Below, piece by piece: positions 10,374 through 46,245 of a DNA stretch of 64,000 nucleotides (position 1 is its first letter; the number at the start of each line of letters is the position of its first letter). The position numbers were made by a program, and so were the translations under genes. Source of the stretch: Amoebophrya sp. A120 (taxonomy: Eukaryota > Protista > Dinoflagellata). Location of the stretch: positions 2,422,281-2,486,280 of the forward strand of contig CAJINV010000013.1 in the NCBI GenBank assembly GCA_905178155.1, given 5' to 3'. Under the pieces are notes generated by a model. That model searched no databases and had not been told where the DNA came from. It saw nothing but the letters and a program-made list of their open reading frames with translations.

Positions 10374-11111
10374 CGTTTGAAGACAGAAAAGCAGATAGAA
10401 GAAAATGAAAAGCTGCTTCGCAATTATGGTCGCTGCGTTCTTTTCTAGAGGACTGTATGATCTTAGACGTCGATGAAGAGTTTCTGTTTCCTTGGTAGTT
10501 CTGGTTGTTAGTATTTCGCTGAAGCGGAGCAGGATAATAAATGAGAAGATTGTCACGACTGGTGTAAGATAAATGCTTCTGGACTTCTGAGTTTCGCCAT
10601 ATGATCGAACTAACAATATGAATAAGAGTAAACACAGATTTCCATGACCGGCCTTATCGAGAAAGAAAGGCTTATTTCGCCGGGTTGCTGTTGCTGGCCC
10701 GCCGCCGCCAGCCGCTGTTTCCATGGTCCCGACGACCATTTGCGGGCGTCACCAGTAATACCGAGGGAAGTGCACAACTACCATGAGACTCATTGCATTT
10801 GCAGTTCAAGGAAGTTATGAGTCAAAAGTGAATGAGAGCAGGATTTTGGAGTGATGCTATTCGTGCAGGTACTACGACTGGGCCCTGGTATTCTGCGGCC
10901 TATTTCAGATCCAGTACAACATTTACGAACTGGAAATGAAACTCAAGATCAGCTGCTGAAGCGACGCTCACCTACCATCTGGATGAGAAAGACGACAGTT
11001 CTGGTCAATGCGAATTCCACAACATCAAAAAAAAAATGATCTTCCGTCATGACAATACAACTTCTCTACCAAGCAGACGATCCTGCTCAACAGAATCGAA
11101 AACTCGATAAG

Positions 11112-13650
11112 ATGCCGTCGTCTAGTATTTCCGGCGCAAAAAATGCAGCCGCACCGCAGGGTGATTCACCCGCAACACCCCTCCCCCCGCTCGCCGCGTT
11201 CGCGACCACCCACTGCGACTACCGAGCGGCCTACATTCCGCTGTTTCTCCAAAACCTCGGAAACGAATGGCACCCGGAGACGAACCCGGACGGCAAGGTT
11301 GCGCTGTGCGTCGCGGAGAACAAACTGATGGAGGCCAATTTGCAAGACCGGATTGCGGAAGTGTCGCTCGGGAAGATCATGACGAAGCTGCAGAAAGATG
11401 CGGAGAAAAGGCAACGCAAGAACTTTTATCTCTGCGGTTTTGGCGGATGCTCTTCGTCCTCCAAAGAAACTTCTGCTTCTGACACCGTTTTGAAAACGAA
11501 AACTGGCGACTCAACCACGGACGATGCCGTTTTGTACCACATGCCGAGCTCCATGCTGCATTACCACAATTTTTCCGGATCGGAGGCCATTCGGGCGGCG
11601 TTTGCGACTGTGCTTGAAAAGTACGTTTTCAACACCGCCTTGGAATTGATCTCAACGCTACCGACAAGTATGAAAGTCGATCCCGACTGCCTTTCCATCA
11701 CGAACGGCTGTACTAGTTTGATCACCAGCTTGGCCCGAGTAATTTGTGAGCCCATCGAGGGACGAGACCAGGAGCCAGAAACGAAACCACCGAGGACCCA
11801 GGAATCCTCCACCGAAATTGACGATGTGCATCTTCTTGTTTCGAAGAAACGACGTCGAGATGCGGTGATGTACTTCACCCCCCGCTACCCAGGTTTCGCC
11901 ACGGACATTACCGGTTTCGGGCAGGTCGCAAGGGTTGGGGTTCCGCTGGCGTTCAAGAAGAAAAAAGCAATGGACAAGGAAGATATTAGTACAACAAACA
12001 ACATGGATAGTAGAACAAGCGACGATTGTTCTACTTCTCTACAAATAGAGTGCAGTCTTCCGTCCAACGAAACGCTGGACCAGTACTTTGAGGACGATTT
12101 CCCAATCGACAAGCAGCACAACGTATCCTGTGCAACAGTATCGTCCTCGTAGTATATTGCCATTGCAGTCATGATGCGACACAAATCTATCTCTCTACCT
12201 CATCTAGCATGACAAAGGGCGTTTTTTTTTTGAGAAAATTTGTAATGCTATCTGTGCTAGTGCTAGTTGTAGTCCTAGTGTAGTGCGATACAATTCTGCT
12301 GCAATGCATACAGCTGCAACTTGAAGGCCTTGCTTCTGTGCAGCCCGGACAACCCCACGGGGACGGTGTGGAAGCGCGAGGAGCTGGCAAGGATTGTGGC
12401 ATGGTGTCGGGCAAAACAAATCTATATCCAGCAAGAAACGCCCATCCCCATCCAGTTTCTGCATGGGAAGCGCTGGACTTGTTTGATGCATGCTTTGCAT
12501 GATAAGTTGGATGGGGATGCTGAGACTTTTTCTGTGGATAGTCTATCTGCTGTCCGACGAAATTTACGGCGCCTCGGTTTTCGAGGAAGTCGGCGAGCAG
12601 AGCGGCGGGGATGAGCGCAACAAGAACCGCGAAACCAAGCACCTCAGCTTGTGTAACGTGGCAGACTGCACGTTCTGGGGGCTCTCGAAGGACTTTGCGA
12701 GCAGCGGCTCCAGACTCGCCTGCGCGTACTTTCCGAAGCTGCACCAGGGTCGTTCGAAGCTGGGAGAGATGTTCCGAGAAGTGAACATGGTGAATTCTGT
12801 AGCGAAGTGAAAAAAATCACTCTGCTCCTCATATTCAAACATGGCGGATCTGCATACACAATCATACAGAATTTCTGTCTTGCAGGAAGGACAAGGACGA
12901 ACTGCAGCCAGATTGCTCTCAGTCCGTGCAGAGGCGGCGCCGTTAGGGGCTAGCGGTTTAGGATGGCAAGTTTGTTCCGTTTTCGATTTGGGGGGTCCCG
13001 CCGGGTGATTTTTCCTCACAATATTCCGTCGGGTGCATCACCGAGCACGTTTTCGCCGAGATCTTGGGGGATACGAGTTTTATGACGTCGCACCTGGGGA
13101 ACGTCCGGCAGTGGCTGAAAAAGCACTCGGATCTGGTGGTGCAAAAGTTGGAAAGTTTGAAGATCCCGTACTGCAAGCCCTCGGCGTGCGTCTTTCTCTG
13201 GTGCGACTTCTCCGAATTCGGCATCCCAGCATTGGCGTTGTTTCAGCTGCTGATGGACAATACCAAATGCAAACGAATATCATGTTGGGACTGGAATGAA
13301 AGTATTGCAGATGATCATGTTGTTCTTCCTCATGCTCATTTTGCATGATTCGCGACGTCTGTCGTGTTGCACTAGCAAGAGCATCACATCGAACTCGAAG
13401 TTAGTTCTTTCACGAATAAGTACCTCCTGCTGCTCCCAGACATGTCGATTTGCAATGCATAGACGAGTACGGTATTATGTTCACGCCTGGAAACGAATTT
13501 TACGACAAGAATGTTCCGCAGCAGGAAGAGGCGCGGGTCTCCGGTTGCTGGATGCGAATTTGTTATGTTGCCGCTGAAACAAGGGCACTGCAGCACGCGC
13601 TTGGAAAATTGGAGAAGTTTGTGTTGGATCAGCGCAGTAGACAGTCCTGA
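11112..13650 (+). CDS. PLP-dependent class I/II aminotransferase (ACC-synthase-like), 5 exons
   Basis: WHPETNPDGKVALCVAENKL, LLLCSPDNPTG, LLSDEIYG, WGLSKDFASSGSR (PLP Lys), PSACVFLWCDF, IMFTPG, WMRICY; four introners interrupt it. Alternative start 11049. Confidence 0.85.
12124..12310. mobile_element. Introner
   Basis: TATCCTGTGCA / TGCAATGCATA; flanks CAACG/CAGCT; frame restored before LKALLLCSPDNP. Confidence 0.7.
12425..12540. mobile_element. Introner (shortest here, 116 nt)
   Basis: TATCCA..CATCCCCATCCA / TGGATGGGGATG..TGGATA; flanks ATCTA/GTCTA; gives KQIYLLSDEIY. Confidence 0.85.
12800..13023. mobile_element. Introner, family C-like
   Basis: GTGAAAAAAATCAC / GTGATTTTTCCTCAC; flanks TTCTG/TTCCG; gives VNSVGCITEH. 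Confidence 0.75.
13261..13461. mobile_element. Introner, family A-like
   Basis: TACCAAATGCAAA / TTTGCAATGCATA; flanks GACAA/GACGA; gives LMD(E/K)YGIMFTPG. Confidence 0.8.
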
Positions 13651-14462
13651 ATAAGTAGTGCCCGCACCACCAGATTCTGGAAAATCGAACAGAATCCTAC
13701 ACACTGTCCCTCGGACGAAGAATGGGAATGGTACCCCTTCCCACTGAAACCTTTGCGCGGCGAAGCGATTTGTTCAGGGTAAAACTGAAATCCGCTGTGC
13801 AACACTAGATTCTTCTTTTGGAAGGTGAAAGTGTTGCGCGTCATTTTCCCGCCGCGTCGCAGATTGATTCGCGTGACTCATGGAGTGAGAGTTTCTACTG
13901 AGAGATAGTACTTACATGTAATCAATTGTAAGAAGCTACTAAAGCTGGCTCTCGGTGTGCAGCGGAGAGTAAATATGTTGCATATTGTACTAAGCATAGA
14001 AATCGTATCTGCATCAACGTCGACGAGCCGTTAGCGTCCTCGAAACGGAGATGCGGTCTTCTGCTTGCTTCACAATTCGTCCTAGTCTCTTCCGTTCGGT
14101 GCTCGCCGTCCGTTTCATGCGCCGGCCAGTATGATCACCTAACTTCGAATCGAAAGTCGATACGAGATATGAATACTTCTCGATTTTTATAGAAATGAAG
14201 CGTGTCAATTCAATAGATGAGAGAGTTGCGCATGTGCAGCAACGAGCGTTTTTCGGTAGAGAACCACTTTTCTACTAGAAAACCATTTGTCCACCACTAA
14301 TCCAAATTTTTATTGAAGCAGAGGCGGAGATGGAAGGTGGTTCAATGACAATGTAAAGCCTCTACGTAGTAAGTACTAGAAAAGAGCTGCAATCACGTCG
14401 AGGCTCCATTGACAAATCCGGGAGCACATCGCAAGTTCCGAAAAGTCCTCCACCTACCAAAC

Positions 14463-17400
14463 ATGAACAAGCACTATTCCACCGATACCGCCTCATCCCA
14501 GCGACACCACCGCGAAAGTGCGCGCGCGGCCGCAATCCGGAAGGCGGTCCAGCAGCACCTGTCTCCCGAGGCGGCGAAGAAGCGCGCCAAGGGGCACATT
14601 GAGCCGGAAATCGATGTGTCCTCCTTGAGGCAAGCGGCTGCCATGTACAAGGATGAGGTCTTCAAGGCGGCGCCAGACCGGAGTGCGAAGGTGCCGAGCA
14701 AGGGTGCAGCAGCCTCGCTGTTGAAACCGGGCGGAGGTGTCTCTCCTTCCTCCTCTCCAACAAAAAGAAGCGCCAGGAGCTCGTCGTCCAGTAGACCAAA
14801 AGCGAAGCTTGCGCCGATTAGCGCCACAGGACTTGGAGGGTCTTCTTCCTCGCTGCAGATGGGGAATAAGCGCGGCGGGGGAATCACGAATAAATCCACT
14901 GCTGCAATAAACACGTCGTCCTCCCGGAGTGAAGGCGTGCTTTCATCGTCTTCCGCCGTTGGAACTAAAACATATGTTGATAAAAGACAAGCTCCTACAA
15001 CATCAACCAACGTCAGCGTGAGCAGTACCAGTGCCCCCGCTGTCTCGCCGATAAAACAGCAGGGTGCGCTTATCGCCAACGCCTCCTCGGGGTCGCCGAG
15101 GCAGAAGAGCGCGGAGAGCCTGTTCGCGGAGTACAAAAAGAATTTGGAGGTCGGCAATTCTTCGTCGAGCACAAGCAGGTTTTTCCGTGGCGGAAGTAGT
15201 GCTTCGCCAGGAGCTCCTCTCGTTACCGGTCAGGCCCCAGCAACTATGTCAAGCCAGATAGCGTCTGCGATAGAGGAAGAACTGCAGGCGGTGGATCAGC
15301 AAGAGGCAGAGCAGAGCAACGCTCGATCACAGGAGCTGGCGGAAGAAGCGAAAACAGTCAAGACCACTATCGCGCAGGTAGAACAAGTTGTACTTGTGAA
15401 AATAAGGGACGAACTCTTATATCTTGCTCGAGTAGGATCTTCTTCTTCACGCGTTTGTATGCACGTTATTTTGATTTCTTCGGAAAATGGAACCTCAACC
15501 TTCATGATCTTCCTCTATCACGACCACTATCAGGTCGAGGCCTCGCTGCAGCGTTCCCTCCGCGAGTTCCAGGAGTCACGGTCCAAGCACGCGCTTTTGC
15601 AGGAGGAAAACGAAAAGACCAGGAAATTTTTGAAATCCAGCCAGACCCGGGTGATCACGGCCCAGGCCAAGATCTCGGCTTTGACCGACCGGAAGAAGCA
15701 TACGCGGGCGAAGCTGGAAGCCGAGTTGCAGGGCAGCGAACGGGAGTTCAAGAAGAAAGCGTTTAAGCTAAAGCAGAAACTGAGGGACTTGACGATGCAG
15801 CTGAAGCAGGGCGAAAAGAAACTCGCAGAGCAAACGGGCGTGCTCGTTGGTTCGGGCGCGGCGAGCGGCAGTACTTCATCTTCGCGGGTGTTGAACAATA
15901 AGACTGCGGCCTCTGCTGGTACCGTTTTTGCGGAGCAACAGCATTTAGCGGACACCGGCGTGCAGTCAGCGGCTGGCGCGATCGCACCAACGAACTCGGC
16001 AAGCAAGGACGCCGGCATCCAGCAGGTGGGCGAATTGCGGAGTGAGCTGGAAGAGATCGAGCACCAGAAGCAGGAGCTGCTTGGGCACCTGGAAAACCTG
16101 CAGGAGAAGCAGTCCGAACTGGAAGTGCAGAAGAAAAAACTGTGCGCCAAGTACCAGGTAAATGTGAGCGACGCAGACGCGAGATTTTCGGCGGGGGGGA
16201 AGAATTTGAGTAATTTTACACCAGGAGATAGAACAACGGGCGGAGCACTCAATCAACTTCTCTCAACTTCTGCTGGCGGACCTACAACTTCTTCAACCAA
16301 CGGTGCGTTGACCGCGCCGGTGGAAAAGAACAGTGGGGCAGCACTGATGTCCACAAACCTCAACGCCCTGCCCAGTAACTACAACCACCGGGAATTGGGT
16401 AGACAAGAGCTCCTCCAGACCGAAAAGCAGTTTCGGTTGATCACGAGCAGGATTCGCAGGGAGCAATCGAAATTGCTGCGGCTCGACCGCGAGTTTTCCC
16501 AACTGCACGACAAGGAGGTGCAGCAACAGAAGGACATCCGGAGCGAGCTGGAGATGCTGCTGAAGGAATTGAACGGAACTGGCTCCTCCGCATCATCTTC
16601 GTCCCCAGGAGCGGCCAACGCACAACAGGTTTCGGCGAACGTTGCCACTTGGAAGAAAACCATCAAGCAGATCGAGAAGGAGTTACAAGCGATGGTGACC
16701 GAGTTCGAAGTGAAGAAGAAAGTCCTACTCGCTTCTGTGAAAGACATCGAACACGACCTGGAGGTAGGCATCGCAAATTGTATTCTGTCTGGGCGGTCAC
16801 TTGACCTGTCATGACCAAAGACGCAGATCGACGACTCTTTCAAGAGCGAAAATGCGCATGTCTCCATTTAGCATGAAAGCCAGCTCTTCTCGCTCTTCTC
16901 TTTGCTCGACACGCATTCCTCTGCATGAGAAGCATTTTTTTTCCACCTCTACTGCTCGCCCAGAGGATCCAGATAGGTGCATTTGCGGTGGATACGTGGA
17001 AAGAAGGCACAACGTGAACGTCGTGAATCACAACGAAGCGGTGAAGAACCAGTCCATGATCCAGCTGCGGCTAGACCAGCTGTCTTCATTCGAAGCGCGA
17101 TTGGTCGGGCACGAAGAAACGCACAAGGCGAAGAAGGCGAAGCTCGAGAAGTGGTTAGTGGAAAATAAGATGGAGCTGCAGAAATACCTGGAAGAAAACC
17201 ACGACACGATAGTACAACTAGAGAGCACGAGAACCGCTGGTGCAGATGAACCTGGTGCGGCGGGTGCAGGCGGAGAACAAATCGATGATGACGTAGTTGT
17301 TCCCGAAGTGCAGGAGCAGCTCATGACCGATCTGGAAAACCTGCCGGTTGTTGGCTCTATGCGAACGCAGCTGATCAAGGAGAAGTACCAGTCCCTCGTG

Positions 17401-20400
17401 AACCACCTCGCAGAACTCGAAGCGGACGCGGCGGAGCAGACCTCGAAACGCGAGGAGGTCGTCCTGGAGATCGAGCTCAAGCTGGCCATATCAACTGCAA
17501 AGAAATATGTCTGGGTCTCGAAACCTGTGATGCTGAATGGTCATGATTGAGTACTACGCCTTGAAATGCAGTGACGCATGACAAATTTTCCAAACGCTTT
17601 CTCATGCCCAGCACGCATTACAAACTTCGACTGGCGAAAATTATGTGGCACTTTTGCTGCTTATGCCTATACAGATTTTTCAGGAATACGAGACCCGCAA
17701 TACAGGTTCAACCTTTCCAGACCCAGACATACATGCAGTGCATACGCCAGTCTGTTCAAGGAGCGGGAGGAGGCGAAAAAGCAGAAGGAAAAGCTGCAGG
17801 GCTTTCTCGCGAGCGTGACGAACGACACAACTGGAAGCAACATGATCGGGTCCTCGGCAGAAGTGGACGGCGACGCGGTCAAGCAGACGATCCACGAGTA
17901 CAAGTGGGTGAAGTCCTCGAATGTTTCCACGCAAAACAAGCTTTTCCAGCTGATCGAGCGAAACAGGAAGGAATTCATCCGGCTAGAAGAAATCTACCAA
18001 TCCCTGGACTCGGTCGAGTATCCAGCGCAAAAAAATCTAGCACAGTGAGTGTTGGTCGTTTCAACCTCAGGCAGAGCGTAACAAGCTGCATGCCATGACA
18101 GGAGTGGTGGTTGACTATTTCTATGACTTTAACTCACTTAAAGGAGCAACACGGGTGCTGGGTGGGCCACCAGCACGGGTAGATGCCAGATCTGGCGGTG
18201 GTTCCATCAATCCTTCGGACTGATTGGAGGAAATTCTTGGGGTACTAACTTACACGACAGCACTTTGCTGTCGGAGCACTCCAGTTGTTCCACGATGATG
18301 CACGTGCTGGCCTGCGTAGCGATGCAGTCCGATTTTTTGTCATGATGCGAAATTCCGCCTGCGCGGGCGCGGCTCGAGAGCGGACATGTCTGTGCACGAC
18401 TTTTGCGCTGCATACGGAGGATTCGATGAAGGTGCTGATCGAGTACTTAGACAAGCTGCAGAAATGCAAAATGCTGGTCGTCGAGAAGTTGGATTTCAAG
18501 GAAAAGCAGCTCCTGAAGCTGATGAACCCCGGGGAGCAGATCACGCCCGCTTCGGCCACGGCGGGGAGTAGGGGGTACAGGGTTTTGGAATTCATTTTCA
18601 TTCACCACTCGAGTAGTATCATGCGTGCAGTGGCCGCCCACTGTGGGGGCTACGACTCTTTTGCATGCCTTCGCGAGGTCTCTTCGCTCCACGAGGATCG
18701 ATCTGAAGCTGCACTCTCGTCACAAGCGACCAAAACGGAACACAGGACTTGATTTTACGAGAAGAAATTTCAATTTGATCAATTTTACAGCCGTGCCCGG
18801 TTCTCTTACCCCTCCGAAGCTGGCACCGCGGCGATTCTGCAGACGCAGGAAAGGGTCGAGAGCCTGCTCCGCAACTACGATCCAAAGGTGATTTGCTTTT
18901 TTTGGAACAGAAATACGAATGATCGCGTGAAGAATCCTTTCGTATTAGTTCTAGGTTCTTTATCAAGGAATCCGTGCTATAATCGGTACGCTTTCTTCTG
19001 TTTTCCCAAACCACTCAGGTGTTCCAGGATTCCGCTGAGTTGAAGAAGAATCTAGCCGCGAAGGAGAAAGACGCCTACACAGTGGAAAAGGAGTTGCAAA
19101 GGCTAGAGTCCTCGCACGCTCGGGACGTCGACTTGTACCGGCAGGGGTTGAGCGAGGTACAGACTTCGACTTTTTTGCAGTGCCCACCTTATGTAATGGC
19201 GCATCATGCTGTTGATTATTCAAAAACCGAATCAGAATCAGAATCAAAGCTGTCGTGAACAACACAACAACAAATGAACCAAAACAGGAAGAGACCACCC
19301 TGAACAAGGAGATCACCTCTTCCGAAGAACGGGTCGAGATCGAGCAGCAGCGAGCGGTCCAACTGAAGAAACAGGTGGAGAAGCTGGGCAAGCAGGTGGT
19401 GGAGCAAGAGGATCAGACCCTGGAGAAGGACCGGAAGTGCAAGTTTCTCCAGACGAAATTGAGCGAGTTGCGCAACCTCCTCTACGTGATCGAAGAAAAG
19501 GAAAGTACGGCAGCAACGGCGTCCAAGAAGAACTCGAAAAACACCACCAGTGGCGCGAGTGCGTCCAATGGTGGTGGAATCATTTTCCAGCAAAAAATCC
19601 AGCTTGGAGCAGGAGGCACTTCATCCGCCACATCGCCGTACGGTGGAGCCGGCGCTTCTACTTTCGTCGACCACCAGGAACTAAAAACCCTGAAGACTCT
19701 CCCGGAAGACATCCACTCCAGAATAGAAGAAATCACAAACGAGGTTCGCCGAAACAGTGCCAGCGCACTCGGCTCGCCCACGGAGGACGAGGAACAGCAG
19801 GACGAGGACATGGGCAAAACGCATGGGAAAAATGTCGCCAACAATACACAGACCAGCAGTAAAAAAGCCGCCACTTCTTCCAAGGAGAGAGAGAAGCAAG
19901 ACAACAGCGGTGATTCATCGTCGTCGCTAGTGTACCAGTACCAAGCCAACCAGCAGCCTTCGTCCGCGCGATCCTCAAACACCAGAGGCAGTGGTTTGAT
20001 AAACAGCGCAAGAACAGAGAATAACAACCCATTCAGTGCTCGAGTAGTTGGTGGCGGAGGTGGTGCGCCAGTCAGTACGCTGAACAGTCCGCGCGGCGTG
20101 CCTCCTTCCCTCGACAAAAATACAGCTCTTCAGAACAAGCTACCGTCGCTGGAAACCATCCAAACCCACTTCGGCAGGGAGCACCCGGCGTACCTGTTCT
20201 ACATGCACTTGCTCCCCCTGTTGAAGGGCATCGCGGTGATGCAGCTGCAGAAGAAGCAGAACCTGTGGCAGCCGCGCATCGTGTCCGTGTCGAACGTATC
20301 AAGAAGAAAAATCCCCCCTCCCCATATTGAAAAGATATGTCTCCGAAAATTTGTGTTGCTGATTTGAGGCCACAGATCACATTTGTCTTGCAAGGAAACA

Positions 20401-21543
20401 ACGGCAGAAGCTTCCGCCATATTATGGAAGCGATTTGTCACGCTGTTGGGCCTAAAGGGGAGCCGTTTTTCATGCTGAACAACTAGACCCATACGCCCCT
20501 ACCTAGCCTGGGGATCTGGCTGCAGTGGCTCTCTGCAATACAGCGCTGATTTGTGTACACAAGTCGAGCATTAGAAGTTCCGTTTTGCTATGGGGAGGGG
20601 GGATTTTTCCTTTCGATAGAACGACTACGGGCGGGTCCAGTTTCACAGCGAGGAAAAAATCGTCGCGGAGACCTTCCTATCAAACGCGAATATGTCATCT
20701 GGGTCCCGAAGAGTGCGAGGTTTGTCATGCTAGTCTGGCATAACTCTGCACTCTGTATTGCGTGGCCGCGAAGGGCTCCTCTTGACTGTCATGCAAAAAG
20801 GGAGTCTCTCATGCGGAATACGCAACTGAGAACCTCCACGGAAAAACTTTTCATGCTTGGCAGCGCATAGTTGCAGTGTACTCATTATTCCCTCCCTTGG
20901 ATCACAAGTTTCCAGGCCCAGACTCATATTTGCAATGCATACTTCCTCCGGACAAGGTCCTTAAAATCCGTGAACGTGCCGGATCCGATATCAAAAGGAA
21001 AAATCCCCCCGCCCCATACCGAAAACGAAATTTGTGATGCTGGATTTGAGTACACAAATCAGATTTGTCTTGCTGAAGAGGATTGCAGGCCCACATCAAG
21101 CCTGAGTAGAGAGGTTTTGGCCTAGCCGCTTAGCATGTATGAGAAACGTCTGCGCTGTAGGCCAAACAGCATCACAAACCGCCTGCATAATGCGGCGGAG
21201 CCTGTGGAGTTGCCTTCTTGCAGGACAGAGATCATTTGTGGTCGCAAATCAGCATTGCAAATTTTCTGCGGCGTACCTTTTCGATATGGGAAGGGGGAAT
21301 TTTTCCTCACAATATCCGACACTGAAACTCCTCCAGGACGTGGCCCGCGGGGTCGAGATCAAGTCGTCGCGGTCCAAGGCGTACCACCTGCACATCCTGC
21401 GGTTCGACGGGGACCCGGTCCGGCTGTCTGTGCCGACGATCACCACCTTTCACCTCTTGACCCAGGCATTCAAAATTCTGTGCGAGACGCCGAAGGAACA
21501 ACTAAGCTACTTTGCGGTCGTGCTGGGGCTCAAAAGTACGTGA
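14463..21543 (+). CDS. Large coiled-coil protein with possible C-terminal PH-like domain, ~11 exons
   Basis: Heptad-rich E/K/L/Q segments; GT-AG introns 15378-15533, 18575-18790, 18888-19018, 19157-19287; six introners; spliced C-terminus GIAVMQLQKKQNLWQPRIVSVSNDYGRVQF...FLRTRSLKSVNV...RLSVPTITTFHLLTQAF resembles a PH fold (inference). Confidence 0.65.
16765..16994. mobile_element. Introner, family A-like
   Basis: CATCGCAAAT..TCTGG / CCAGA..ATTTGCGGTGGATA; flanks GGAGG/CGTGG; gives DLEERRHN. Confidence 0.7.
17489..17744. mobile_element. Introner, family A
   Basis: TATCAACTGCA..ATGTCTGGGTCT / AGACCCAGACAT..TGCAGTGCATA; flanks GGCCA/CGCCA; gives KLASLFKE. Confidence 0.85.
18019..18414. mobile_element. 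Introner
   Basis: TATCCAGCGCAAAA / TTTTGCGCTGCATA; flanks TCGAG/CGGAG; gives DSVEDSMK. Confidence 0.85.
20297..20618. mobile_element. Introner, family C (TATC..GAAAAATCCCCCC TIR)
   Basis: Perfect TSD GAACG. Confidence 0.9.
20678..20941. mobile_element. Introner, family A-like
   Basis: Perfect TSD CTTCC; no GT-AG at any sliding register. Confidence 0.9.
20989..21314. mobile_element. Introner, family C, opposite orientation to 20297-20618
   Basis: Perfect TSD TCCGA; interior resembles the reverse complement of the 20297 copy. Confidence 0.9.
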
Positions 21544-22883
21544 GGCGTGTGGCCAAAAAGAATGCGCAACTCCAGCGGACTTCATATACGATTTTGTTCA
21601 TTGGTTGTGAGGACGCACTTGATGTGACGCCGTTACAGATTCATCTTTTTCAACCCCTGTTGCTAGAGCATGGCTTATTTCATCTTACTTTGGCTTTCGT
21701 TTATGCTCGTCTTTTTTCGCATCCAATTTCATCGATGCATGAACGCAAACCCACTAACTATAGCGAGGGACGCCCGACATCCTAGAAACCCAGGCTCCTC
21801 CTGCTGAGCACGTCGGTCCTCGAGCGACGCCGACGCGTCATATTAACTTCATGCTTTTACAACCACGCGGCCCAACATGTCCGAGGTAGGTTCATTCATG
21901 TAGATTTGCGGGGGTGTGTTCACCCGAAAGGTAAAGCAAAAAAAAGAAAGCGGAAGGGAGATCCCAGATGAATACACTTTTCTGCAGAGTTCCGGGTCCT
22001 TTCAATCCACGCACGAAAAAAGATTGAGAGCGGAGGAGTGTGAGATGTTCATGTAGACATGAAACCAAAAAAGCATTCCAAAATTTCAGCTAATTACTTG
22101 CTTACGACTTTTGATGCGTGCGCCAGTTGTGCAGCCGCACATCGCGATTGGTAGTGGTTTCTCGGGATTGTTATTGTCCAGAGGTCAGACCACCCATCAT
22201 GACTTGGGTATCGCTATCGACTTCTTTTGCGGCTACATTTCTGGCCCCATGATTCTTGGCCACTACACTTCATGAATTTCAGTCTTGGCGCCTTCAACTT
22301 CATCTTTCTTTGTCAGCACTGCTCGCCGGCGGTGATCAACCCGTTGGTTGTTGGAGCAATGCCCGTCGCAAGTTGGCTCTGCGGCTTGGCGCCCCCGCTA
22401 CCGTTCGCCCAGCATCATGTGATACCCCGCTCGCCTCGAGAACATCGCCTGTCGTTTCTATCTACCTGTCAGTCGCCGACCTTTGCCCGAGGCATGGCAC
22501 TGACCACTTGCGCTTGCTCCTTCTTCCCATTGTGACTAGTAGGGGTGGACTGCTTTTCACAACCCCGCTTTAATTATTACGTCGTGGACGTACACGACTT
22601 TTTGTTTTTCTAGAGTTTTACGAGAGTATTGGACGAGGTCACAGCGTCTTGGTGTCCTCCGCTGATTGATGATCAGAGGAAGCGGTGCTGGGAGAGAGCA
22701 GCGAGAGAAGAGGCACAAAGAAGTAGAATGAGGAGCAATTAGATGGTAGGAGGAAGTGAGAAGCTTGACGACGAAGAAGTACTTGACATCTTCAATGAGG
22801 TCGAGGAGCTCGTGATTTTTTCCTTAGATTGCCTATTCAATAATTAAGTATATTGATACGACAACTTCTCCATCCAAGTCCAA

Positions 22884-24493
22884 ATGAGTCTTTCGTCGAG
22901 GTACCGGTTTGGGTGGTTCGCCGCAGTTCATCTCGCGCTGATTGCGGATCCTTATCATGGAGAAGAAGTGAGTGATATTCCTGAGTGCTGGTAGTCCTAT
23001 GAAAAAACTCAATTTGTCATGCGGAGTTGCCAATAGAGCTCTTGCACCAAAAAACACTCTCGGAGGCATGGAATTCAGTCGATTTTGGTTTGCCTTTTGC
23101 ATGAACAGGAAGAACACAGCAAATGCGCATGACAGAGGACTGCGCTTTTTCTTAGGTCTAAGTTGTACCAGCACTTTTCAAAAACACTCATTTGCCCTCT
23201 TTTATAATCCGGTCATCTTATCCAAAAAAACAATACCTACGTCCGCGCTGATGCACTTTGATGTCAGTCAACGCCAATAGTTTTTGGCTGTGAGAAAACT
23301 TTACTTACACCATTTTCAGCCTGGGTGATGTACTTACATGACCAAGCGGCAGGTTCTTGCATGTAATACAAGAGGCTGCCGCTTGGTGCACGGCCCTCAA
23401 CACTTGCAGCGCACGTCACAGCATTTTTACAGGACAACTTTTCGTCAGTGCGTGAGACGACGAGACAGCAAGTCGTGTCGACATCAAGGTACAGCAGCGC
23501 ACTTGGCACGGGTGAGCACTTTTTTTGCATCCTTCCTTTTCACTGCTGGCAAGGAAGTTTTGCGGCACGGAGACGCGCAGCCGGCTGGTGTATCCTCTGC
23601 AAAAGTATCGCACTCGTGGTAATTGCAGCACAAATCTCCACCTACTCCTGCTTAAACTGAATCAGCATATACAAATTCCGTTTGTCATCATGCTGAGCTG
23701 AAATTTGTATTGCAATTACATACTACTAGTACGATGCTTTTGCAATGCATATGGTGCATCGAACAACAATGAAAACAAGCTGCAGAAAAGAACCGGCGTG
23801 AGTCAGGAGCCATCAACATCCCCCTCCACCAGAAAGAAGCGGACGGTCTCCGTCGATCATGCTGCCGTAACGGATCATGGAGGCCAAGGCGCGGGTGAAA
23901 ATGCAGCGCAGCGTTACGCGACTGGTGCACACGTTCATCTGGGGAAAATATGCATTGCAAATATATCTGGGTTCGGAAACTTGTGATGCTGGGTGGTGTG
24001 GTATCATGAGGAGGCCACAAGTGCTGGCTCAGCATGACAAGTTTCTGAACTTCTAGGCGTTGCATACTTATTCTGCGCGACAAAGTGCGTTTCTGCATGA
24101 CAGAAAAATGGAGCTCTTGGGTGACGGGCATGACAGATTTAAGAGCCATGCCAGACAAGCATGACAAACATGCACTCTTCCAGACCCAGACATATTTGCA
24201 CTTGATAGAAAACCACGGCGGACGATTTGCAGGAAGAAGACGGAGAACCTAACGGCGACGACGCGACCGACGAACCGTCGTCGCAGCACGACCAAGATCT
24301 TCTCCTCGACACGAATTTCCTGCAACCGAACGCGTATTCGCCAGCTCCAGCTGCAATCCCCGGCGTTACTGTACCGCCACCAGTTGCCGATATGAATCAC
24401 CGGCCGGCGCCGCCCAGACCCAGCATGAGATTAAAGCTTGCCAGCCTGTTAAGATATCGGGCGTTTAAGTTCGAAATACGTGGCGCGGATTAA
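22884..24493 (+). CDS. Hypothetical protein with signal-like N-terminus, >=5 exons including a ~7-nt micro-exon
   Basis: Removing four introners gives MSLSSRYRFGWFAAVHLALIADPVIFFTAGKEVLRHGDAQPAGASNNNENK...LGKTTADDLQEEDG in one frame; 3' end uncertain. Confidence 0.6.
22953..23206. mobile_element. Introner
   Basis: TATCAT..TGAGTG / CACTCA..TTATA; flanks ATCCT/ATCCG. Confidence 0.7.
23219..23531. mobile_element. Introner
   Basis: TATCCAAAAAA..GCGCTGATGCACTTTGATGTC / GACATCAAGGTACAGCAGCGC..TTTTTTGCATC; flanks CATCT/CTTCC. Confidence 0.7.
23591..23751. mobile_element. Introner
   Basis: TATCCTCTGCAAAAGTATCG / CGATGCTTTTGCAATGCATA; perfect TSD TGGTG. Confidence 0.9.
23949..24207. mobile_element. 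Introner, family A
   Basis: Perfect TSD GAAAA; TGCAAATATATCTGGGT / ACCCAGACATATTTGCA. Confidence 0.9.
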
Positions 24494-24509: not shown

Positions 24510-25375
24510 CTGAAAGCCTCGGAATTTTGTAGCCGAGGCAAGTGCCTCAACTCCCACGAAGGCTGTGTTCCGTCGCCCTGTTGGCCAACGCTCTTGCAAT
24601 ACGAACAAGAAACGCACTCGGTTTGTCATGCGCAGGGCCTTTCCGTAACTTTTTGCCGTTTGCCGGCAACGTTGCAAGCTGGGGACGAATCGGATCTATG
24701 TAGCGCAAGTCGCTGCTGTTCTTCCGAACGCAGCCCCTGTGACGAGCACGATGCTACTCGTGCGTGACAAATGAATCTGCGAATTTTCCAGCTGAGGCAA
24801 GTGCCTCAACTTCCGTTCAAGGGTTTTGTCATGGAGGAACGCGAGATGATTCGTGCATGACAAATCTCCGAATTTGGAAGTTAAGGCAAGTGCCTCAACT
24901 TCCGCCTACGAGCCTTGTCATGCACGAACACGAGGAGGCTCGTGCATGACAAATCTCCGGACTTGGAAGTTGAGGCACGAGCCACCTCGTCGTGTTCGTA
25001 CGCGTCAAAGGCCGTGAACGGCAGTTGAGGCACTTGCCTCAACTTCCAACTTGCTTCCGAGGTTTGTCATGCGCAAGAAGCTTCTTTCAAGTCCCGTTCG
25101 CGGCCTTAGGCATGTACGAGGGATCGGGAGCGTGACGTGGTTCGTGCATGACAAACCTGGTACTTTTGGAGTTGAAGAAAGTGCCTCAACTCTCGTGCCG
25201 GGCCTGTGTCATGCCCTTTCTGGACATTGTTCCTGCATGACAAACCTCCGAATTCGGAAGCTGAGGCGCCAACGCCTCAATTCTCGGCCCGACCCTTTAT
25301 TGTCATGCACGAGCGCGACGTTGTTCGTGCATGATAAGTCTGGGAATTTAGAAGCTGAGGCAGGTCGTGCCAAGT
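24510..25375. repeat. Degenerate tandem array of ~90-bp units, each with a hairpin core
   Basis: AG(T/C)TGAGGCAAGTGCCTCAACT-like core at ~24531, 24790, 24880, 24968, 25023, 25170, 25260, 25353, flanked by GCATGACAAA / TTGTCATG. Confidence 0.75.
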
Positions 25376-25923
25376 GCACGGGAGTTGGGGTTTGACAATG
25401 ACTTCCTAGAGGGCGCCTTTTGAGCCGACTGGCTCACCTGGGTTTCGCGGGCTATGGAGGGGCGCTCCAGGTGCTATTCCAGGCATGCGCTGCTGGTGTA
25501 GCGCTCCATCTGTCACTTCACTGCCGTGCGCTTTTGTTCAAGCAGTTGCCCTGTGCCCAGCTGCAGCGAGCGCGCGCCGCCCGAAGGTGCCGCCAGACAC
25601 CGGCGGCGCTACTTACTTACACGCCTCTTATTTCATACTTACGCAGCCCCACTCTTAACAGATAGGCAAGCTCTAAGCATGGAAGTGCCTTTTATTTTGT
25701 TTTCTTTTTTTGGTAGCTAAAGATATCACAGTACCAAAGAAGTCACTTGCGTCATGTTGTTTTCTTTTTTTTGTTTTCTGCTTTTTTTTCTAAATGAGAC
25801 AAAGAGCCCTTCCCTAATTTCTCTACGCGAGAAGTGCATTGAAAGAGTTTTCTCATTGCGCGTTCTATTCTGTGTTTTCGTGGTCTGGGTGTTGAGAAAC
25901 CTGAACCTTTTGGAACCCAGCGC

Positions 25924-31550: not shown

Positions 31551-31629
31551 GGGTCTAGGGTAGTTTAGGGCTTGGCCCTCCTCCTTTTCGCAGGGCTTGG
31601 GTTTAGGGTTTGGGGTTTAGGGCCTAGGG
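31551..31629 (+). repeat. Interstitial telomere-like (TTTAGGG) repeats
   Basis: TCTAGGG, TTTAGGG, CTTGGG-TTTAGGG-TTTGGGG-TTTAGGG-CCTAGGG. Confidence 0.6.
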
Positions 31630-39805: not shown

Positions 39806-42464
39806 ATGGCTCCGCAGCCTTTCCTCGACCTGCCCACCGTTCTGCTCGGCGACGGGCAGTTGCGGGATGTGGGTAATTTTCACGAAAAGTCGTTCTACCG
39901 AATCTGGACGAAGGACCACAAACTGCAGCACCTGTTGCAGCAAACCAAGATGGCTTACTCGCAGCTGATGGAGCTGCTGCCCACCGACGGGGTTTCGCTC
40001 GGCAAGCAGCACCTGGTGGCCTCGCCCTCGGAGACCGCGGGTCAGAAGGTACGCATGTTCGAGACTGGGATGCTGCTGAATCTTTTGTCCACGGCCGAAG
40101 AAATTTGGAAACAGGACACCAACACCTGCAACATGCTGCAGGAGCGCGCGCAGGTGCAGCTGAACTTGATTCTGGAGGAGCAGAACCTGTACACCTTGAA
40201 GCAGGAAGAACGAAAATTGTTTCAACTGGTCGCGAACCTGATGGGGCGGCACGTGTGGCACCCGGAGGAGTACTGGGACATGGCCTGCTACCCGGACGTG
40301 AAGTCGGTGGAGCGGTACTGGATGGGCGCGCGAATGCTGTTTGACACGACCGTGAACCCCTACGCGGACCTTTCCTACGCCCGCGGCGCGGAGAAAAATC
40401 TGGACGTGACGGACAGCAACTTCCACGCGGCCTGGGAGCGCATCAACCAGGGCAGCGCGAACCAGCGGGACAACGTGTTGGGGAACGTGAGCGAGCACCG
40501 CACGGAGGCGGAGGACGCCCAGCAACTCATGTCCGAGGCGCTGTCGCCCTTCCAGGCCCGCCCCAGCACGCACTACTCGCACAGCGGGAACAAGTTCGGG
40601 CGGAAGCTGAACCCGATGCTGGACTTGTATGACCGGCACTACGCCATGCACCTGCGCCAGCACAAGATCGAGGGCCGGAGAACGGACGGCACCTCCGACG
40701 ACCACCAGCAGCACCCGCAGGGCGCCGCGGGCCTCGGGGACGACCGGGCCATGGGTGACGAGAAGTTGCGGTCAAAATTCGGCCACAAGCAGTGTCCCCC
40801 GGACGCACAGGACTTAGAATTCTTCCGCATTTGCCGCCGGGAAACAGAGCGGACGACCGCGCAGCTGCTGTCCGAAGCGGATTTGCTGAAAAAAGAGATC
40901 TAGGGATTGGAAAAGTCTATGTATCGTCTATTTACGATTTACTGGTTGTAGTATTTTTGCATCACAAACTTTCAATTTCATAAACAAAAAACAAATTATG
41001 AAATTATTTCGGTAATCGTGCTGTGAAGATGCAGGAGCAGGTAAGACTCAGATGGTAGATTTGTGTTTGTCATGCAACAATATTGCGATTACGATTAGTA
41101 CGAGTAACCGATACATAACTTTTCCAATGCATAAGCTCACGACGCGGGAGGTGAAGTTCACGACGAGACGAGCGCAATTGGTGCACAAAATCTACGACAC
41201 AAACGCGAAGTTTCAGCTGTTATCCGCCGCGGAGGCGGACCAACTGAAGTACGAACTGTCCCTGTTGCGGAAGAGACGGAAACTTTTGAATCTGATGAAC
41301 GCGTGTCTGGACGAGATTCGGGAGGGGCGGATCGACTTCTTTGCCCGCATCGAGCTCGTCGACAAAGAGGCCGAGCTGCACATCGCGGTGGACGAGCAAC
41401 TGCTCGCGAAGCACGGAAAGCACAAACCCGCGGAGCTCGCGGCCCGGGTGGCGTGTCACCAGGCGCTGTCCAACGCCTTCAAATTTGACCCGGAGGACGA
41501 TCCGAACTACGCCGACAACGCGGTGAAAAAAGCCATGCAGTGGGACTACAACGCCGCGGACTTCTATGAAAGTGTCAGAATCGAAATTGACAAAATCGAA
41601 AAATTTGTGATGCATAAAATCGATACCAGTTGGAGCCTCAGTTTGTAAGTGGCGCATGACAAATTTCGGGAGCAACCAAATCCAGTCTGTCATGCTGTTT
41701 GGGCAAAGAAGACTGCTCCTGTCGTGCTACTCTGGCAGCACATTGCATATACCCAAACACGCTTACAATCAGTCGCATTTGCCTGCTCCCCAATACAGGC
41801 CTCCAGTGCCCTACATTTTATGCATGAGAAATTCTTTCAACTTTGTCGATTTCGATCCTCACACATCCATAACTTCCTGTTCGACGAGACGGCGCGGAAA
41901 TTGAAGGACCTGCAGGGGTATCAAATGCAAAACTGTCTGGGTCTGGAAGAATGCAACTTGTGATGCTGCGCTTGGATTCCAAAAACATCTGTATTGCATG
42001 AGTACCAAAGGGAATGCAATTTTTGCTACGCTGAGGAGGCATTTGTCATGCGGAATAGGCATCAAGAAGCCCTCAAAAAATCTGTATTGCTAGGGTATGC
42101 ATCACCGACATCGTGGCTCGTCATGCAAAACGTGCATGACAAGTTTCAGAATCTTCCAGACCCAGACATTTTTACAGTTGATAAGGGGGTCAACGTGCTG
42201 GAGTTGGCCGGGACGCCGGTGCCGGAAAAGCAGGACATGATACACGCGGAGCTGGAGCTGCTCAACCTCGCGATGATAGAACTAGAAAGGGACACGCCGG
42301 ACGGGTTGCTGGATGACCGACTGAAGTTTTTGGTGGACATTATCCGAACCAAGATAAAACGCTTGAGGATCGTCGCCATCCAGTCGGCCTATAATCTCTT
42401 CGAGGTGGAAAACGCAAAAAAGAGCTTGCGAGCCGCCTTCCGACAGAATAACATTGTCGCGTGA
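39806..42464 (+). CDS. Hypothetical helical protein, >=4 exons
   Basis: Strong GC3 codon bias; junctions KKEITTREVKF, ADFLFDETARK and LQGVNVLE after removing three introners. Confidence 0.7.
40901..41133. mobile_element. Introner
   Basis: ATTGGAAAAGT.TATGTATCG / CGATACATAACTTTTCCAAT; flanks AGATC/AGCTC. Confidence 0.85.
41565..41871. mobile_element. Introner
   Basis: ATCGAAATTGACAAA / TTTGTCGATTTCGAT; perfect TSD ACTTC. Confidence 0.9.
41919..42183. mobile_element. Introner, family A
   Basis: TATCAAATGCAAAACTGTCTGGGTCTGGAAGA / TCTTCCAGACCCAGACATTTTTACAGTTGATA; perfect TSD AGGGG. Confidence 0.92.
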
Positions 42465-43335: not shown

Positions 43336-46245
43336 ATGGCAACTCCTGCCTCCTCTTCTTCGCTGGCGGGAACATCAATCATGTTTTTCCCCAGCGGCCA
43401 CGCAATGGCGCCACCGCAGCCAACAAGCGGCCAGCACGGATCATTTTCCTGTGGCAGTTCTGGTTCTTCGGGGAGCTGCCCGGCGGAGATGTTGACGTAT
43501 GAGTCGGTACATGCTCAAATTTCCGTGTTCGAGGAAATGGTGGAAAACCGAAGGCTCGCGAAGCTCATCGAAATGGACGACCACGTGGGCGTCTCCTTCC
43601 ACCTGGCCACCGGGATCTGCCTCGCGTCGACCATCTTTTTCTTTGCGCAGGTAGCCTTCGTACCCGATCGATGGAGGAATTCCATGGTGATCGCAGGGCT
43701 GGTTACAGGTATAATTGAGATTGAAGAGCAACTCGCTTCATTTTTTTTTCCTGGAAGATCAAGATTGTCTTTTGCGGTAGTCTACTAACCAGCCAGCAGG
43801 ACAGAGAAAGCTTGATTAGACACCACAATGAACAAATAGCGGTGCTTTATATAAATGACAAAATGATGTTGAAAATGATAATGAAGGTGTGGCCTGGCAT
43901 CACTACCAACACATGCAAGAGATCTGGGAAGACACGTCAAAAGCCCCGACCATTTATCGCTACATGGATTGGTTTGTGACCGTGCCCCTCCAAGTGATCG
44001 AGTTTTACCTGATCCTTGTCGCCGCGAACCCAGACGACAACATTTCCGTCCCCGCTTCCCTGTTCTACCGCCTCCTGATCGGCTCCATTTTTATGCTGGG
44101 CTTCGGGTACGCGGGCGAGGCCGAGTGGATGGACCGGTGGGGGGCCTTTGCCGCGGGCTGCTGCTGCTGGGCGTACATTATGTACGAGGTAAGTACGAGG
44201 AAACAAAGATCACTAAATTTCTTTTCATGAATCACTTCTGTGGGTGTGCTCTCGTCGTGCTGCGGCACCCTGTTGCATTAATGACTTGTTTTATATGCTT
44301 TGTACAAGCATTTCGAATTACTCTAAAACGAAATCGCAAACGAACAATATTAAAAGAATAACTTCACACAGCACATGAAACACAGATTTCCTTTGGCGAG
44401 GCCGCTCGCATTTCCGGGAAGATGGGGTTGACCGACCGCGATCTGTTCCTGCGCTTTGTTTCGGGCCGCACCAAGGAGGACCTCGAGGAAGAAAAGGAAA
44501 ACGAAAAAATCATCCAGCAAGCCAAGAACGTGAAAGCCGCTGAGATGATGAAGATGAGCAGCGACATTCACACACCCTCGCTGTTGACCACTTCGGACAA
44601 CATGCTGCAAGACAGCACTGCAGTGTCGATGGACGACAACTTCATGCAGGAGCACAAAAAAATCATGGAGCAGATGGATTTTTCCATCTCCTCCCCGTCC
44701 ACAAACAACAAAACCGCATCAAAGAAAGGAGCCCAGCAGGGTGGTTCTGGTTCTCTCTCCTCGCCCAAAATAAACAACGGTCCGCCGTCGGGGCAGAACC
44801 AGACCCTCGCGGGAGCACTGGTGACCAGCATGTCCTCCGCCTTGCGGGTGGACCAGGTGAATGCCGATTCCGTGGCGATGCAGGACTACAAGAAACCGGA
44901 GGCACAGCTGGCCTTTGAAATTCTGCGGGCGATCTTCATTTTCGGCTGGGCACTCTACCCCATTGGATATGCGGTGAAGGGGGACGGAACCAATATTACG
45001 CAGGGGGTGGAGAACACGTTGAATGGTATCTATGATAGGAACTTACTACAATAGTTCATCTGGGGTCTACATCTACTACCTTTTGTGCAAGTAGTGCAAT
45101 GAAAAACAATAAGTTTCCTTTGCATAGTTGTATCAAATGAAAATAGAAACAACTTTACAGCCGTCTACAACGTGGCCGACTTGATCAACAAAGTGGCCTT
45201 CGGTGGGGCAATCTATTACGCTGCCTGTTCGAACGTCGAGGCCGAGAAGGCCGAACTGTACGCGTTGCGCGAGTCGTTAGACCTGGAGATATCGCGAGAA
45301 AAAAGTGTTACAGTTACACATTTGTTGGAGCTCTTTCTGCATCACAAATTTTCTCTGTGTGGCAGAGAAAACTTGTAATGCGAAGATCATAAGGGAAAAC
45401 AGGAAGGAAATGAGGCTGCCAAGCATTTCCTGCATGAGAAAGGTTGTCTGTGTTGCCGGTCTTGCAACACAATCTGTAACTGTAACACTTTTTTCTTACG
45501 ATAGGAGATGACGCAAAAGCAGTGGCTAAAAAAGCAGGCGAACGGCGGCGAAATAGAAATGGCGGATTGGTACAAGGTATCAAGTGTAAAAATGTCTGGG
45601 TCCTCTGGAAGATTGCCAGACTTGTCATGCATATTTTGCATGGCCCCTGATGGCTGTAATGCATGGCCTAGCATCACATATTTCTAGAAGGCTTCCTGAT
45701 AAGTACCTATTCTGCATGAGAAATGCCCTCTCCGTGTAGACCAAACTGGGCTCCTCTTGCTGGTCATGCAATACAGATTTTTTTCGAATCCGAAGACAGC
45801 GTTGGGGCGACTTGCCGTGGTAGCGCTCGGCTTTTGTATGTTGAGGTCGCCGAAAGTGCTTCCTCGCCCACCCCCCGGGGAGGGGATCCTTGACCTGTGG
45901 CGCTGGGTGCGGGTGTCCACTACATGATGATGATGACAGCGTGACAAGTTGCAATCTTCCAGACCCAGACATTTTTTCAATCCATACACGGCGAAGTTGA
46001 TCAAGCAAGCACGGAAGGAACAAATGATCGAGCAGAAGAGAATGTGGTACAGTGCTGTAGTAGTGTTGATTTCATTTCTACGTCCTTCGTCCTCGTCGAG
46101 TTTTCTTTTTTCGTACTTTCCGATTATTGAGAAACACTAGTACAAGTACAACAAGCAAGTACAGCCCACCATCTTAATGTGACACCACACTACCACCAGG
46201 AAAGCCATGTTCGCAAGTGGTGACGAAGGTGCCGCAGCGAATTAG
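43336..46245 (+). CDS. Proteorhodopsin-type microbial rhodopsin with E-F loop insertion and C-terminal extension, 7 exons, ~537 aa
   Basis: Exons 43336-43708, 43887-44188, 44386-45025, 45161-45289, 45509-45577, 45992-46046, 46200-46245 (1614 nt). Motifs GVSF..LASTIFFF, GLVTGVAWHHY, RYMDWFVTVPLQVIEFYLIL, MLGFGYAGE, GWALYPIGY, YNVADLINKVAFG. Confidence 0.92.
45290..45503. mobile_element. Introner, family D (TATCRYRAGAAAAAAGTGTTACAGTTACA TIR)
   Basis: Perfect TSD GGAGA. Confidence 0.92.
45578..45986. mobile_element. Introner, family A, inverted relative to 41919 and with extra internal sequence
   Basis: TATCAAGTGTAAAAATGTCTGGGTC / GACCCAGACATTTTT..CATA; flanks CAAGG/CACGG. Confidence 0.85.

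What the first reader, a model, noticed from the sequence alone, without database searches (positions are those of the whole stretch)
20297..21314. The same introner family sits in both orientations within + strand genes
Seen: 20297-20618 and 20989-21314 lie in one gene and their interiors are reverse-complement homologs. The same holds for 45290-45503 vs 51824-52038 (family D) and for 41919-42183 vs 45578-45986 (family A). All hosts are + strand and the frame is restored in both orientations. Known: spliceosomal signals (donor, branch point, acceptor) are strand-specific. Inference: all information needed for removal lies in the symmetric TIRs or fold-back structure.
Basis: partly seen in the sequence, partly recalled or inferred. 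Interest (0 to 1): 0.75.

Follow-up and report, generated by a model that had tools for sequence, protein, structure and literature searches.

The report
Mobile introns spliced either way round
In the marine parasite Amoebophrya A120, small transposon-like inserts sit inside genes facing either way about equally often and are missing to the base from likely-RNA contigs or published gene models either way, without GT-AG borders, likely because the splicing machinery reads their mirror-image ends and cuts at fixed distances from them.

Summary
Observation confirmed. All three pairs are reverse-complement homologs through their interiors, and every host gene is on +. The window matches Amoebophrya A120 proteins; the elements fit its published introners (TAT…ATA inverted ends, 5-nt duplication).

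In one gene, removing six elements (each plus 5 nt) and four GT-AG introns reproduces two likely-RNA contigs to the base (5087 and 5172 nt). These include 20297/20989 and family-A copies of both orientations. The other two pairs rest on public gene models only.

In 139 further loci, orientation relative to the host is unbiased (family A 62:54). Only 11 of 166 copies allow GT/GC-AG. Damaged duplications fit one cut register: 1 nt before the element and 4 nt after. The ends decay asymmetrically: intron +2 U and the −7 A stay fixed while their mirror positions drift. This points to a relaxed spliceosome reading palindromic ends (untested).

The element class and either-orientation introners are published. 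I found no paper giving orientation neutrality, the register or the asymmetry for Amoebophrya. This scan already noted orientation independence and the 1+4 cut on other pieces of this genome.

The parts
20297..20618 (+). Family-B introner, TIR to TIR; TSD GAACG on both sides; inferred intron 20296-20622 (327 nt)
   Evidence: likely-RNA piece ends at 20291, the leftmost equivalent cut for element+5; hairpin z -6.4
20678..20941 (+).
   Evidence: needed for the 95-nt contig interval between 20292 and 21313
20989..21314 (-). Family-B introner, reversed relative to 20297, in the same + strand gene; TSD TCCGA; inferred intron 20988-21318 (331 nt)
   Evidence: likely-RNA piece resumes at 21314; hairpin z -7.0
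14463..21543 (+). Host gene G1, 1540-aa protein, no Pfam hit on the 3 segments scanned; 6 introners and 4 GT-AG introns; micro-exons 20623-20676 and 20946-20987
   Evidence: model mRNA 5087/5172 nt = X1 record 3 / X2 record 5; Pfam
17489..17744 (-). Family-A introner in G1, orientation opposite to 41919 and so to 20678 (indirect, via 41919/26929); TSD GGCCA/CGCCA; 261 nt removed
   Evidence: contig join 17484/17746; orientation
16765..16994 (.). Degenerate introner in G1 (TAG…ATA, TSD 3/5); 235 nt removed; cut register 3-5
   Evidence: contig join 16762/16998
18019..18414 (.). Introner in G1 (TSD 3/5); register >=2
   Evidence: piece ends 18015; total length check
12800..13023 (.). Degenerate introner in aminotransferase gene G0; register 4-6 (lower bound of the cut)
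   Evidence: contig join 12798/13028
13261..13461 (-). Family-A-like introner in G0; register >=4
   Evidence: piece ends 13259; orientation
22953..23206 (.). Introner with TSD mismatch at position 5; register <=4 (upper bound of the cut)
   Evidence: X2 join 22951/23534 with 5 letters between; host + strand by ORF, 200 aa vs 41 aa
23219..23531 (.). Degenerate introner after a 7-nt micro-exon (23211-23217); register 2-4
41919..42183 (+). Family-A introner (reference orientation), TSD AGGGG, in gene 39806-42464
   Evidence: model = P0001 (612 aa); A25 ortholog P0002 ungapped at this junction
45578..45986 (-). Family-A introner, reversed; TSD CAAGG/CACGG; carries a nested 140-nt insert with an 8-nt direct repeat at 45795 and 45935
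   Evidence: gene model P0003 fits register >=3
45290..45503 (+). Family-D introner, TSD GGAGA, in rhodopsin-domain gene 43336-46245
   Evidence: P0003
51824..52038 (-). Family-D introner, reversed relative to 45290, TSD ACTCC, in gene 48415-53241
   Evidence: model = P0004, 1170 aa

Best explanation
These are Amoebophrya A120 introner elements: small inserts with TAT…ATA inverted ends and a 5-base duplication, likely non-autonomous DNA transposons, that lie in exons in either orientation about equally often and are missing (element plus 5 bases) from likely-RNA contigs or gene models both ways, likely because a relaxed spliceosome reads the mirror-image ends and cuts one base before the element and four bases after it. 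Steps: (1) Shown: anatomy, both orientations, precise absence from contigs in one gene. (2) Inferred: insertion by a TIR transposase making a 5-nt staggered cut, with no target preference. (3) Inferred from 8 damaged duplications: intron = N|UAU…AUA-NNNN|, set by transcript direction, not by element direction. (4) Inferred: the palindromic end does double duty. At the 5' end it supplies a donor-like U at +2 (N-U-A in place of G-U-A). At the 3' end its mirror supplies an invariant A at -7, a likely branch point, with the 3' cut measured by distance instead of by AG. The fold-back likely brings the ends together in place of the apparently missing U1. Because cutting inside the duplication removes exactly one copy of it, any exon position and either orientation restores the original mRNA.
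For: Exact contig lengths 5087/5172 nt and the 95-nt interval. The same contigs also lack four GT-AG introns, so they behave as spliced RNA. Contigs of run X5 (kind not on record; they carry the introns, so they behave as DNA) span all three element junctions at depth ~41-44. Public A120 gene models are identical to the models built here, and the A25 ortholog is ungapped at all three junctions of the 39806 gene. Among 256 unique elements from 139 metagenome loci, host strand was called for 195. Orientation: A 62:54 (35 uncalled), B 4:6 (2), D 5:8 (6), C 3:1, F 2:1 (1); 66 elements unassigned. TSD base composition equals coding composition, GT/GC-AG is possible in 11 of 166, and L+5 is the best-scoring removal in 177 of 215. 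End decay: position 3 deviates in 11/164 5' ends vs 0/167 3' ends (p=0.0004), and position 1 in 0/164 vs 6/167 (p=0.03). Farhat et al. found U2, U4, U5 and U6 in A120 and most spliceosomal proteins, but no U1 (PMC7789003).
Against: No lariat, no splicing intermediate and no trans factor was seen, so the spliceosome step is inference. The upper bound of the register rests on one contig join in one run, in a gene whose strand is called from ORF length. Farhat's Fig. [quoted passage not shown] The end-decay idea arose from these same data. The loci alone give p=0.014 (position 3) and p=0.12 (position 1), uncorrected, after dropping 77 of 266 picks with no triplet likeness and 3 doubtful ones; the window adds 25 of 28 hand-curated elements. 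No G·U excess, so RNA pairing is not shown to be under selection. The four GT-AG introns of G1 lack an A at -7 (sequence). Pairs A (41919/45578) and D have no direct transcript evidence here. X1/X2 are only guessed to be RNA. The metagenome contigs were not shown to be the same strain.
Confidence: 0.55

Rival explanations
1. Same elements and register, but removal is by a non-spliceosomal, structure-guided endonuclease/ligase that recognises the TIR stem with 1-nt and 4-nt overhangs, as proposed for Euglena nonconventional introns.
For: No GT or AG preference at all. Strong end-to-end hairpins in both orientations (z -6.4 and -7.0; end-pairing 0.74 vs 0.74 in 192 elements). U1 was not found in A120. 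The Euglena code is also lopsided, N3-CDG…CHG-N5-6, with circular excised introns (PMC12501133).
Against: The invariant +2 U and -7 A, with drifting mirror positions, look like donor and branch chemistry. Old copies drift to TAG at the 5' end (4 of 28 in the window), giving GTAG-like donors in two. No G·U excess.
Confidence: 0.32
2. The missing segments are reverse-transcriptase template-switch artefacts across hairpins flanked by direct repeats, and the elements are really retained or handled otherwise.
For: Hairpin plus direct repeat is the known artefact context (recalled). The evidence is assembled contigs, not raw or direct-RNA reads.
Against: Retention truncates each ORF. Six elements are missing together in one contig in two runs. 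Removal is exact even where the repeat has only 3/5 matches, and it follows one register. The A25 ortholog is collinear.
Confidence: 0.04
3. Elements are excised at DNA level (IES-like) in expressing cells.
For: They look like DNA transposons, and removal restores the pre-insertion sequence exactly.
Against: X5 contigs carry all three elements in place at even single-copy depth. The same spliced contigs lack ordinary introns too. The 1+4 register follows transcript direction. A minority of excised DNA is not excluded (302 joints were not shown).
Confidence: 0.03
4. Cut positions vary within the duplication, guided by local exon pairing (for example U5 loop 1), and the single register is chance.
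For: Farhat's Fig. 3 and S23 legends describe variable positions. Only two junctions bound the register from above.
Against: 8 of 8 informative junctions and 2 gene-model junctions admit register 4. The end-decay asymmetry implies a fixed frame of reading.
Confidence: 0.06

Closest known systems
Amoebophrya sp. A120 introner elements (Farhat et al. 2021, PMC7789003; seen: abstract, passages, Results part 2-3 incl. sections 10-12, sections 16 and 25, supplement search and part 2 of 5, no figures)
   Same: Same organism (host proteins 100% identical). Non-canonical introns with IRs starting TAT, 3-5-nt DRs (5 bp in Fig. S19), hairpins, MITE-like, multi-copy.
   Different: In the text seen, the paper says nothing on element orientation relative to the host, treats splice sites as variable around the hairpin, and gives no register or end asymmetry.
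Polarella glacialis / Aureococcus introner-like elements (Roy et al., bioRxiv 10.1101/2020.10.14.339549, passages; Huff et al. 2016 not held, known only through that citation)
   Same: TIR/TSD DNA-transposon introns; several classes create introns in either orientation.
   Different: Those recruit GT/GC/GA and AG sites from TSD or TIR, need specific target sequences and are biased to one orientation. Here there is no splice dinucleotide, no target bias and no orientation bias.
Euglena nonconventional introns (PMC12501133, passages and Discussion; PMC11282704, passages)
   Same: Non-GT-AG, terminal inverted repeats, frequent direct repeats, lopsided offsets between stem and cuts, proposed MITE origin.
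   Different: Motif CDG…CHG at +4 and -8/-9 with a purine exon start, versus UAU…AUA at +2 and -7…-5 with no exon preference. Unrelated lineage. Orientation not discussed in the text searched.
Fritillaria non-canonical introns (PMC13326754 and PMC11282704, passages)
   Same: Massive non-GT-AG introns of likely MITE origin handled by a modified U2 spliceosome.
   Different: They keep AG-AN type ends and U1. No either-orientation claim was seen.

Membership tests
Amoebophrya A120 introner elements | In A120 genes | tested here: met
   host exons 100% identical to A120 proteins P0001, P0003, P0004
Amoebophrya A120 introner elements | Terminal inverted repeats starting with TAT | tested here: met
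   23 of 28 curated window elements start TAT and 23 of 28 end ATA
Amoebophrya A120 introner elements | 3-5-nt direct repeats at the exon/intron boundary | tested here: met
   exact 5-nt repeat in 215 of 256, none of 6-8 nt (the scan itself required >=3/5 at that spacing)
Amoebophrya A120 introner elements | Removed from transcripts with non-GT-AG ends | tested here: met
   likely-RNA contigs for G1 and G0; gene models only for pairs A and D
Amoebophrya A120 introner elements | Repeated, in families | tested here: met
   (up to 94% identical copies elsewhere)
MITE / non-autonomous TIR DNA transposon | TIR + fixed-length TSD, short, no coding capacity | tested here: met
   116-409 nt in the window
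MITE / non-autonomous TIR DNA transposon | Cognate autonomous element / transposase | not tested
Canonical U2 spliceosomal intron | GT/GC donor and AG acceptor | tested here: not met
   possible in 11 of 166; in none of the sliding registers of 20297, 20678, 20989, 17489
Canonical U2 spliceosomal intron | Lariat with branch-point adenosine | not testable with these tools
   only indirect: A at -7 unchanged in 167 of 167 free 3' ends
Either-orientation ILE of Polarella/Aureococcus type | Splice dinucleotides recruited from TSD/TIR, with target-site preference | tested here: not met
   TSD composition matches CDS composition at all 5 positions
Euglena-type nonconventional intron | 5'-N3CDG…CHGN5-6|R signature | tested here: not met
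   ends read N-TAT…ATA-N4 and exon start is unbiased

The most novel reading that the evidence does not exclude
Amoebophrya A120 runs a U1-less splicing mode in which one palindromic transposon end is both donor (N|UA) and branch site (A at -7), with a ruler-type 3' cut. Any insertion of the transposon, at any exon position and in either orientation, is then a perfect intron at birth: a transposon made neutral by the host's splicing code.
Probability: 0.35. Interest if true: 0.85.

Novelty: new variant of a known kind. Interest (0 to 1): 0.52.

Why it matters
How A120 removes more than 60% of its introns without GT-AG borders, and apparently without U1, is stated as open in Farhat et al. 2021. 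Orientation neutrality removes the interior from the list of required signals. The 1+4 register and the invariant +2 U and -7 A give exact predictions: where a lariat should branch, and which single bases should block splicing. It would also explain how tens of thousands of insertions spread through coding exons at little cost, and it gives a simple annotation rule for this genome.

Tried and rejected
No RNA holder was listed on record for the stretch; X1-X4 are guessed RNA. No transcript data were obtained for pairs A and D, so they rest on gene models.

Rejected readings: (a) Similarity confined to TIRs. (b) Hidden canonical splicing using G-TAT and ATA-G of the GAACG repeat: it would leave 3 extra nt and shift the contig end from 20291. 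(c) Longest ORF as arbiter: element+4 gives a longer ORF for the three 3' elements of G1 (1622 vs 1541 aa), and other lengths do for 13261; the contig lengths decide for element+5. (d) RNA-level selection on the stem: G·U vs A·C not different, and sense vs flipped folding not different. (e) Strand-specific internal motif: TGTNWTGC is enriched in elements (63 of 103 window hits) but occurs in both directions.

Rfam gave 0 matches over 20200-21400. An unanchored TIR+TSD scan gave many false picks. In one search one training gene was out of frame; this was fixed, and the leave-one-out check (11 of 16 called at the threshold, all correct; 1 of 16 with the wrong sign below it) comes.

Literature searches. 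None of the texts read reports orientation or register for Amoebophrya. Figures, supplement parts 1 and 3-5 of PMC7789003 (keyword-searched only), bioRxiv supplements, datasets of PMC12130899, Huff 2016 and subscription papers were not seen and could hold it.
Full report
Identity. Exons of three host genes are 100% identical to proteins labelled Amoebophrya sp. A120, with one A25 ortholog (41%). The elements fit the introner elements of Farhat et al. 2021 (PMC7789003): inverted repeats starting TAT, short direct repeats, non-canonical borders, and no U1 snRNA found.

Observation. The three pairs are reverse-complement homologs beyond their TIRs. With 60 nt trimmed per end, rc z = 20.2, 18.9 and 19.2 versus forward 6.7, 2.0 and 0.8. 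Central thirds score 77.5/17.5, 74/9 and 75/6, rc/fwd. Family B is partly palindromic inside as well, hence its forward signal. Each element is flanked by a 5-nt duplication just outside TAT…ATA. A third element (20678-20941, family A) lies between 20297 and 20989, leaving exons of 54 and 42 nt. 45578 is longer because of a nested 140-nt insert.

Removal from transcripts. Four runs were laid on 11900-24300. Guessed-RNA runs X1 and X2 each give one contig covering gene G1 in pieces. Removing six elements (each plus 5 nt) and four GT-AG introns gives 5087 nt and 5172 nt, the exact contig lengths, and 95 nt between 20292 and 21313, as observed (two of the GT-AG introns and one donor were placed by length fit). 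The outer junctions (20291, 21314) are seen directly. The split of the 927 removed bases among the three inner elements (327+269+331) is inferred from the sum. The contigs lack ordinary introns too, so they behave as spliced RNA. Contigs of X5 carry all three elements in place. Thus family B (20297 vs 20989) and family A (20678 vs 17489; orientation linked through 41919/26929) are each removed in both orientations from a single transcript. For 41919/45578 and 45290/51824 no transcript data were obtained. There, my element+5 models equal P0001 (612 aa) and P0004 (1170 aa) and match the 3' part of P0003. These public models were built from transcript alignments. The A25 ortholog is ungapped across all three junctions of the 39806 gene.

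Orientation at scale. From 270 picks, 256 were unique. A codon model called host strand for 195; all 164 same-locus pairs were concordant. Orientation relative to the host: A 62:54 (p=0.52; 35 uncalled), B 4:6, D 5:8, C 3:1, F 2:1; 66 elements had no family. Duplication bases match coding composition at all five positions, a GT/GC…AG register exists in 11 of 166, and element+5 is the best-scoring removal in 177 of 215. Elements within a locus are not independent.

Where the cuts fall. A perfect duplication hides the cut; a damaged one reveals it. With s = bases of the left copy kept, contig joins allow: 12425 s>=1, 12800 4-6, 13261 >=4, 16765 3-5, 17489 1-5, 18019 >=2, 22953 0-4, 23219 2-4. 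Only s=4 fits all eight. Gene models add s>=3 for 40901 and 45578. So the intron is likely N-UAU…AUA-NNNN, oriented by the transcript. The upper bound rests on one X2 join in a gene called + by ORF length (200 vs 41 aa). Farhat's legends call the sites variable, which may reflect the sliding ambiguity.

What the ends encode. Both orientations fold into long end-to-end hairpins (z -6.4 and -7.0). Sense and flipped versions of 192 elements fold alike, and G·U is not favoured over A·C, so pairing is available both ways but not shown to be selected as RNA. The terminal triplets decay asymmetrically on the transcribed strand. Position 3 deviates in 11 of 164 free 5' ends and 0 of 167 free 3' ends (p=0.0004). 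Position 1 deviates in 0 of 164 and 6 of 167 (p=0.03). The crossed pattern argues against a general strand mutation bias (p=8e-5 on the 2x2). In intron coordinates, the fixed bases are U at +2 and A at -7. Caveats: hypothesis and test share data; loci alone give p=0.014 and 0.12; 29 of 295 picks had no host strand, 77 of 266 and 3 more were dropped, and 3 of 28 window elements were left out.

Mechanism. Most likely (0.55), a relaxed spliceosome uses the 5' end as a G-less donor and the mirror A near the 3' end as a branch point, with a distance-set 3' cut and the fold-back standing in for U1-type pairing of the ends. The main rival (0.32) is a structure-guided endonuclease/ligase, as proposed for Euglena. 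Template switching and DNA-level excision are unlikely. The spliceosomal role of +2 U and of a branch A is recalled knowledge; no call shows a lariat.

Novelty. The element class is published. Either-orientation introners are published for Polarella and Aureococcus, but with near-canonical sites and orientation bias. Five searches and the passages read showed no report of orientation neutrality, register or end asymmetry for Amoebophrya; unseen figures, supplements and subscription papers may hold it. Earlier notes of this scan on other pieces of the genome reached the orientation and 1+4 conclusions. I had derived both before reading them (note), and they are not independent support. In the snippets shown I saw no orientation counts or end-decay test. 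Verdict: a real feature and a new variant of a known kind; interest 0.52.

Noticed in passing
window 45795-45942; L019:1686-1817: A 140-nt insert with an 8-nt direct repeat and a (GAT)n tail is nested in introner 45578. A 98.5% identical copy sits inside a different introner family in L019. It looks like a truncated LINE/SINE 3' end; both copies seen lie inside introners.
   Followed up: partly
window 43336-46245: Type-1 rhodopsin-domain gene (PF01036, P0003) with a long low-complexity insertion. Helix C reads D-T-E with Q in the tuning position, and the retinal lysine motif is present (motif reading recalled): a proteorhodopsin-like protein in a parasite.
   Followed up: partly
window 11049-13651: Class I/II aminotransferase gene (weak PF00155 hits) interrupted by four introners; the model gives 617 aa.
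   Followed up: partly
window 23211-23217: 7-nt micro-exon between two introners, supported by an X2 contig join.
   Followed up: partly
window 45026-45160, 49154-49429, 43709, 50330, 51622: Several GT-AG introns start GTAT, and 49161-49313 holds a TAT…ATA hairpin. These may be old introners converted to canonical introns.
   Followed up: no
window 24518-25377: Array of 89-nt units with internal palindromes carrying the same GCATGACAAA motif found inside introners.
   Followed up: no
window 31122-33767: 2.6-kb region bounded by 65-nt inverted repeats (31122-31186 / 33703-33767) with ~700-nt internal direct repeats; possibly a larger non-autonomous element.
   Followed up: no
window 26130-26400 and 28434-28785: TAT…TA hairpin elements without a recognisable 5-nt duplication; 26130 is palindromic over its whole length.
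   Followed up: no
window 6765-10373: 1120-aa RING-finger protein gene with one introner (7454-7694), whose TIR resembles that of 3192-3396.
   Followed up: partly
window 4314-5210: Short multi-exon gene that reads like an EF-hand centrin/calmodulin (by eye, untested).
   Followed up: no
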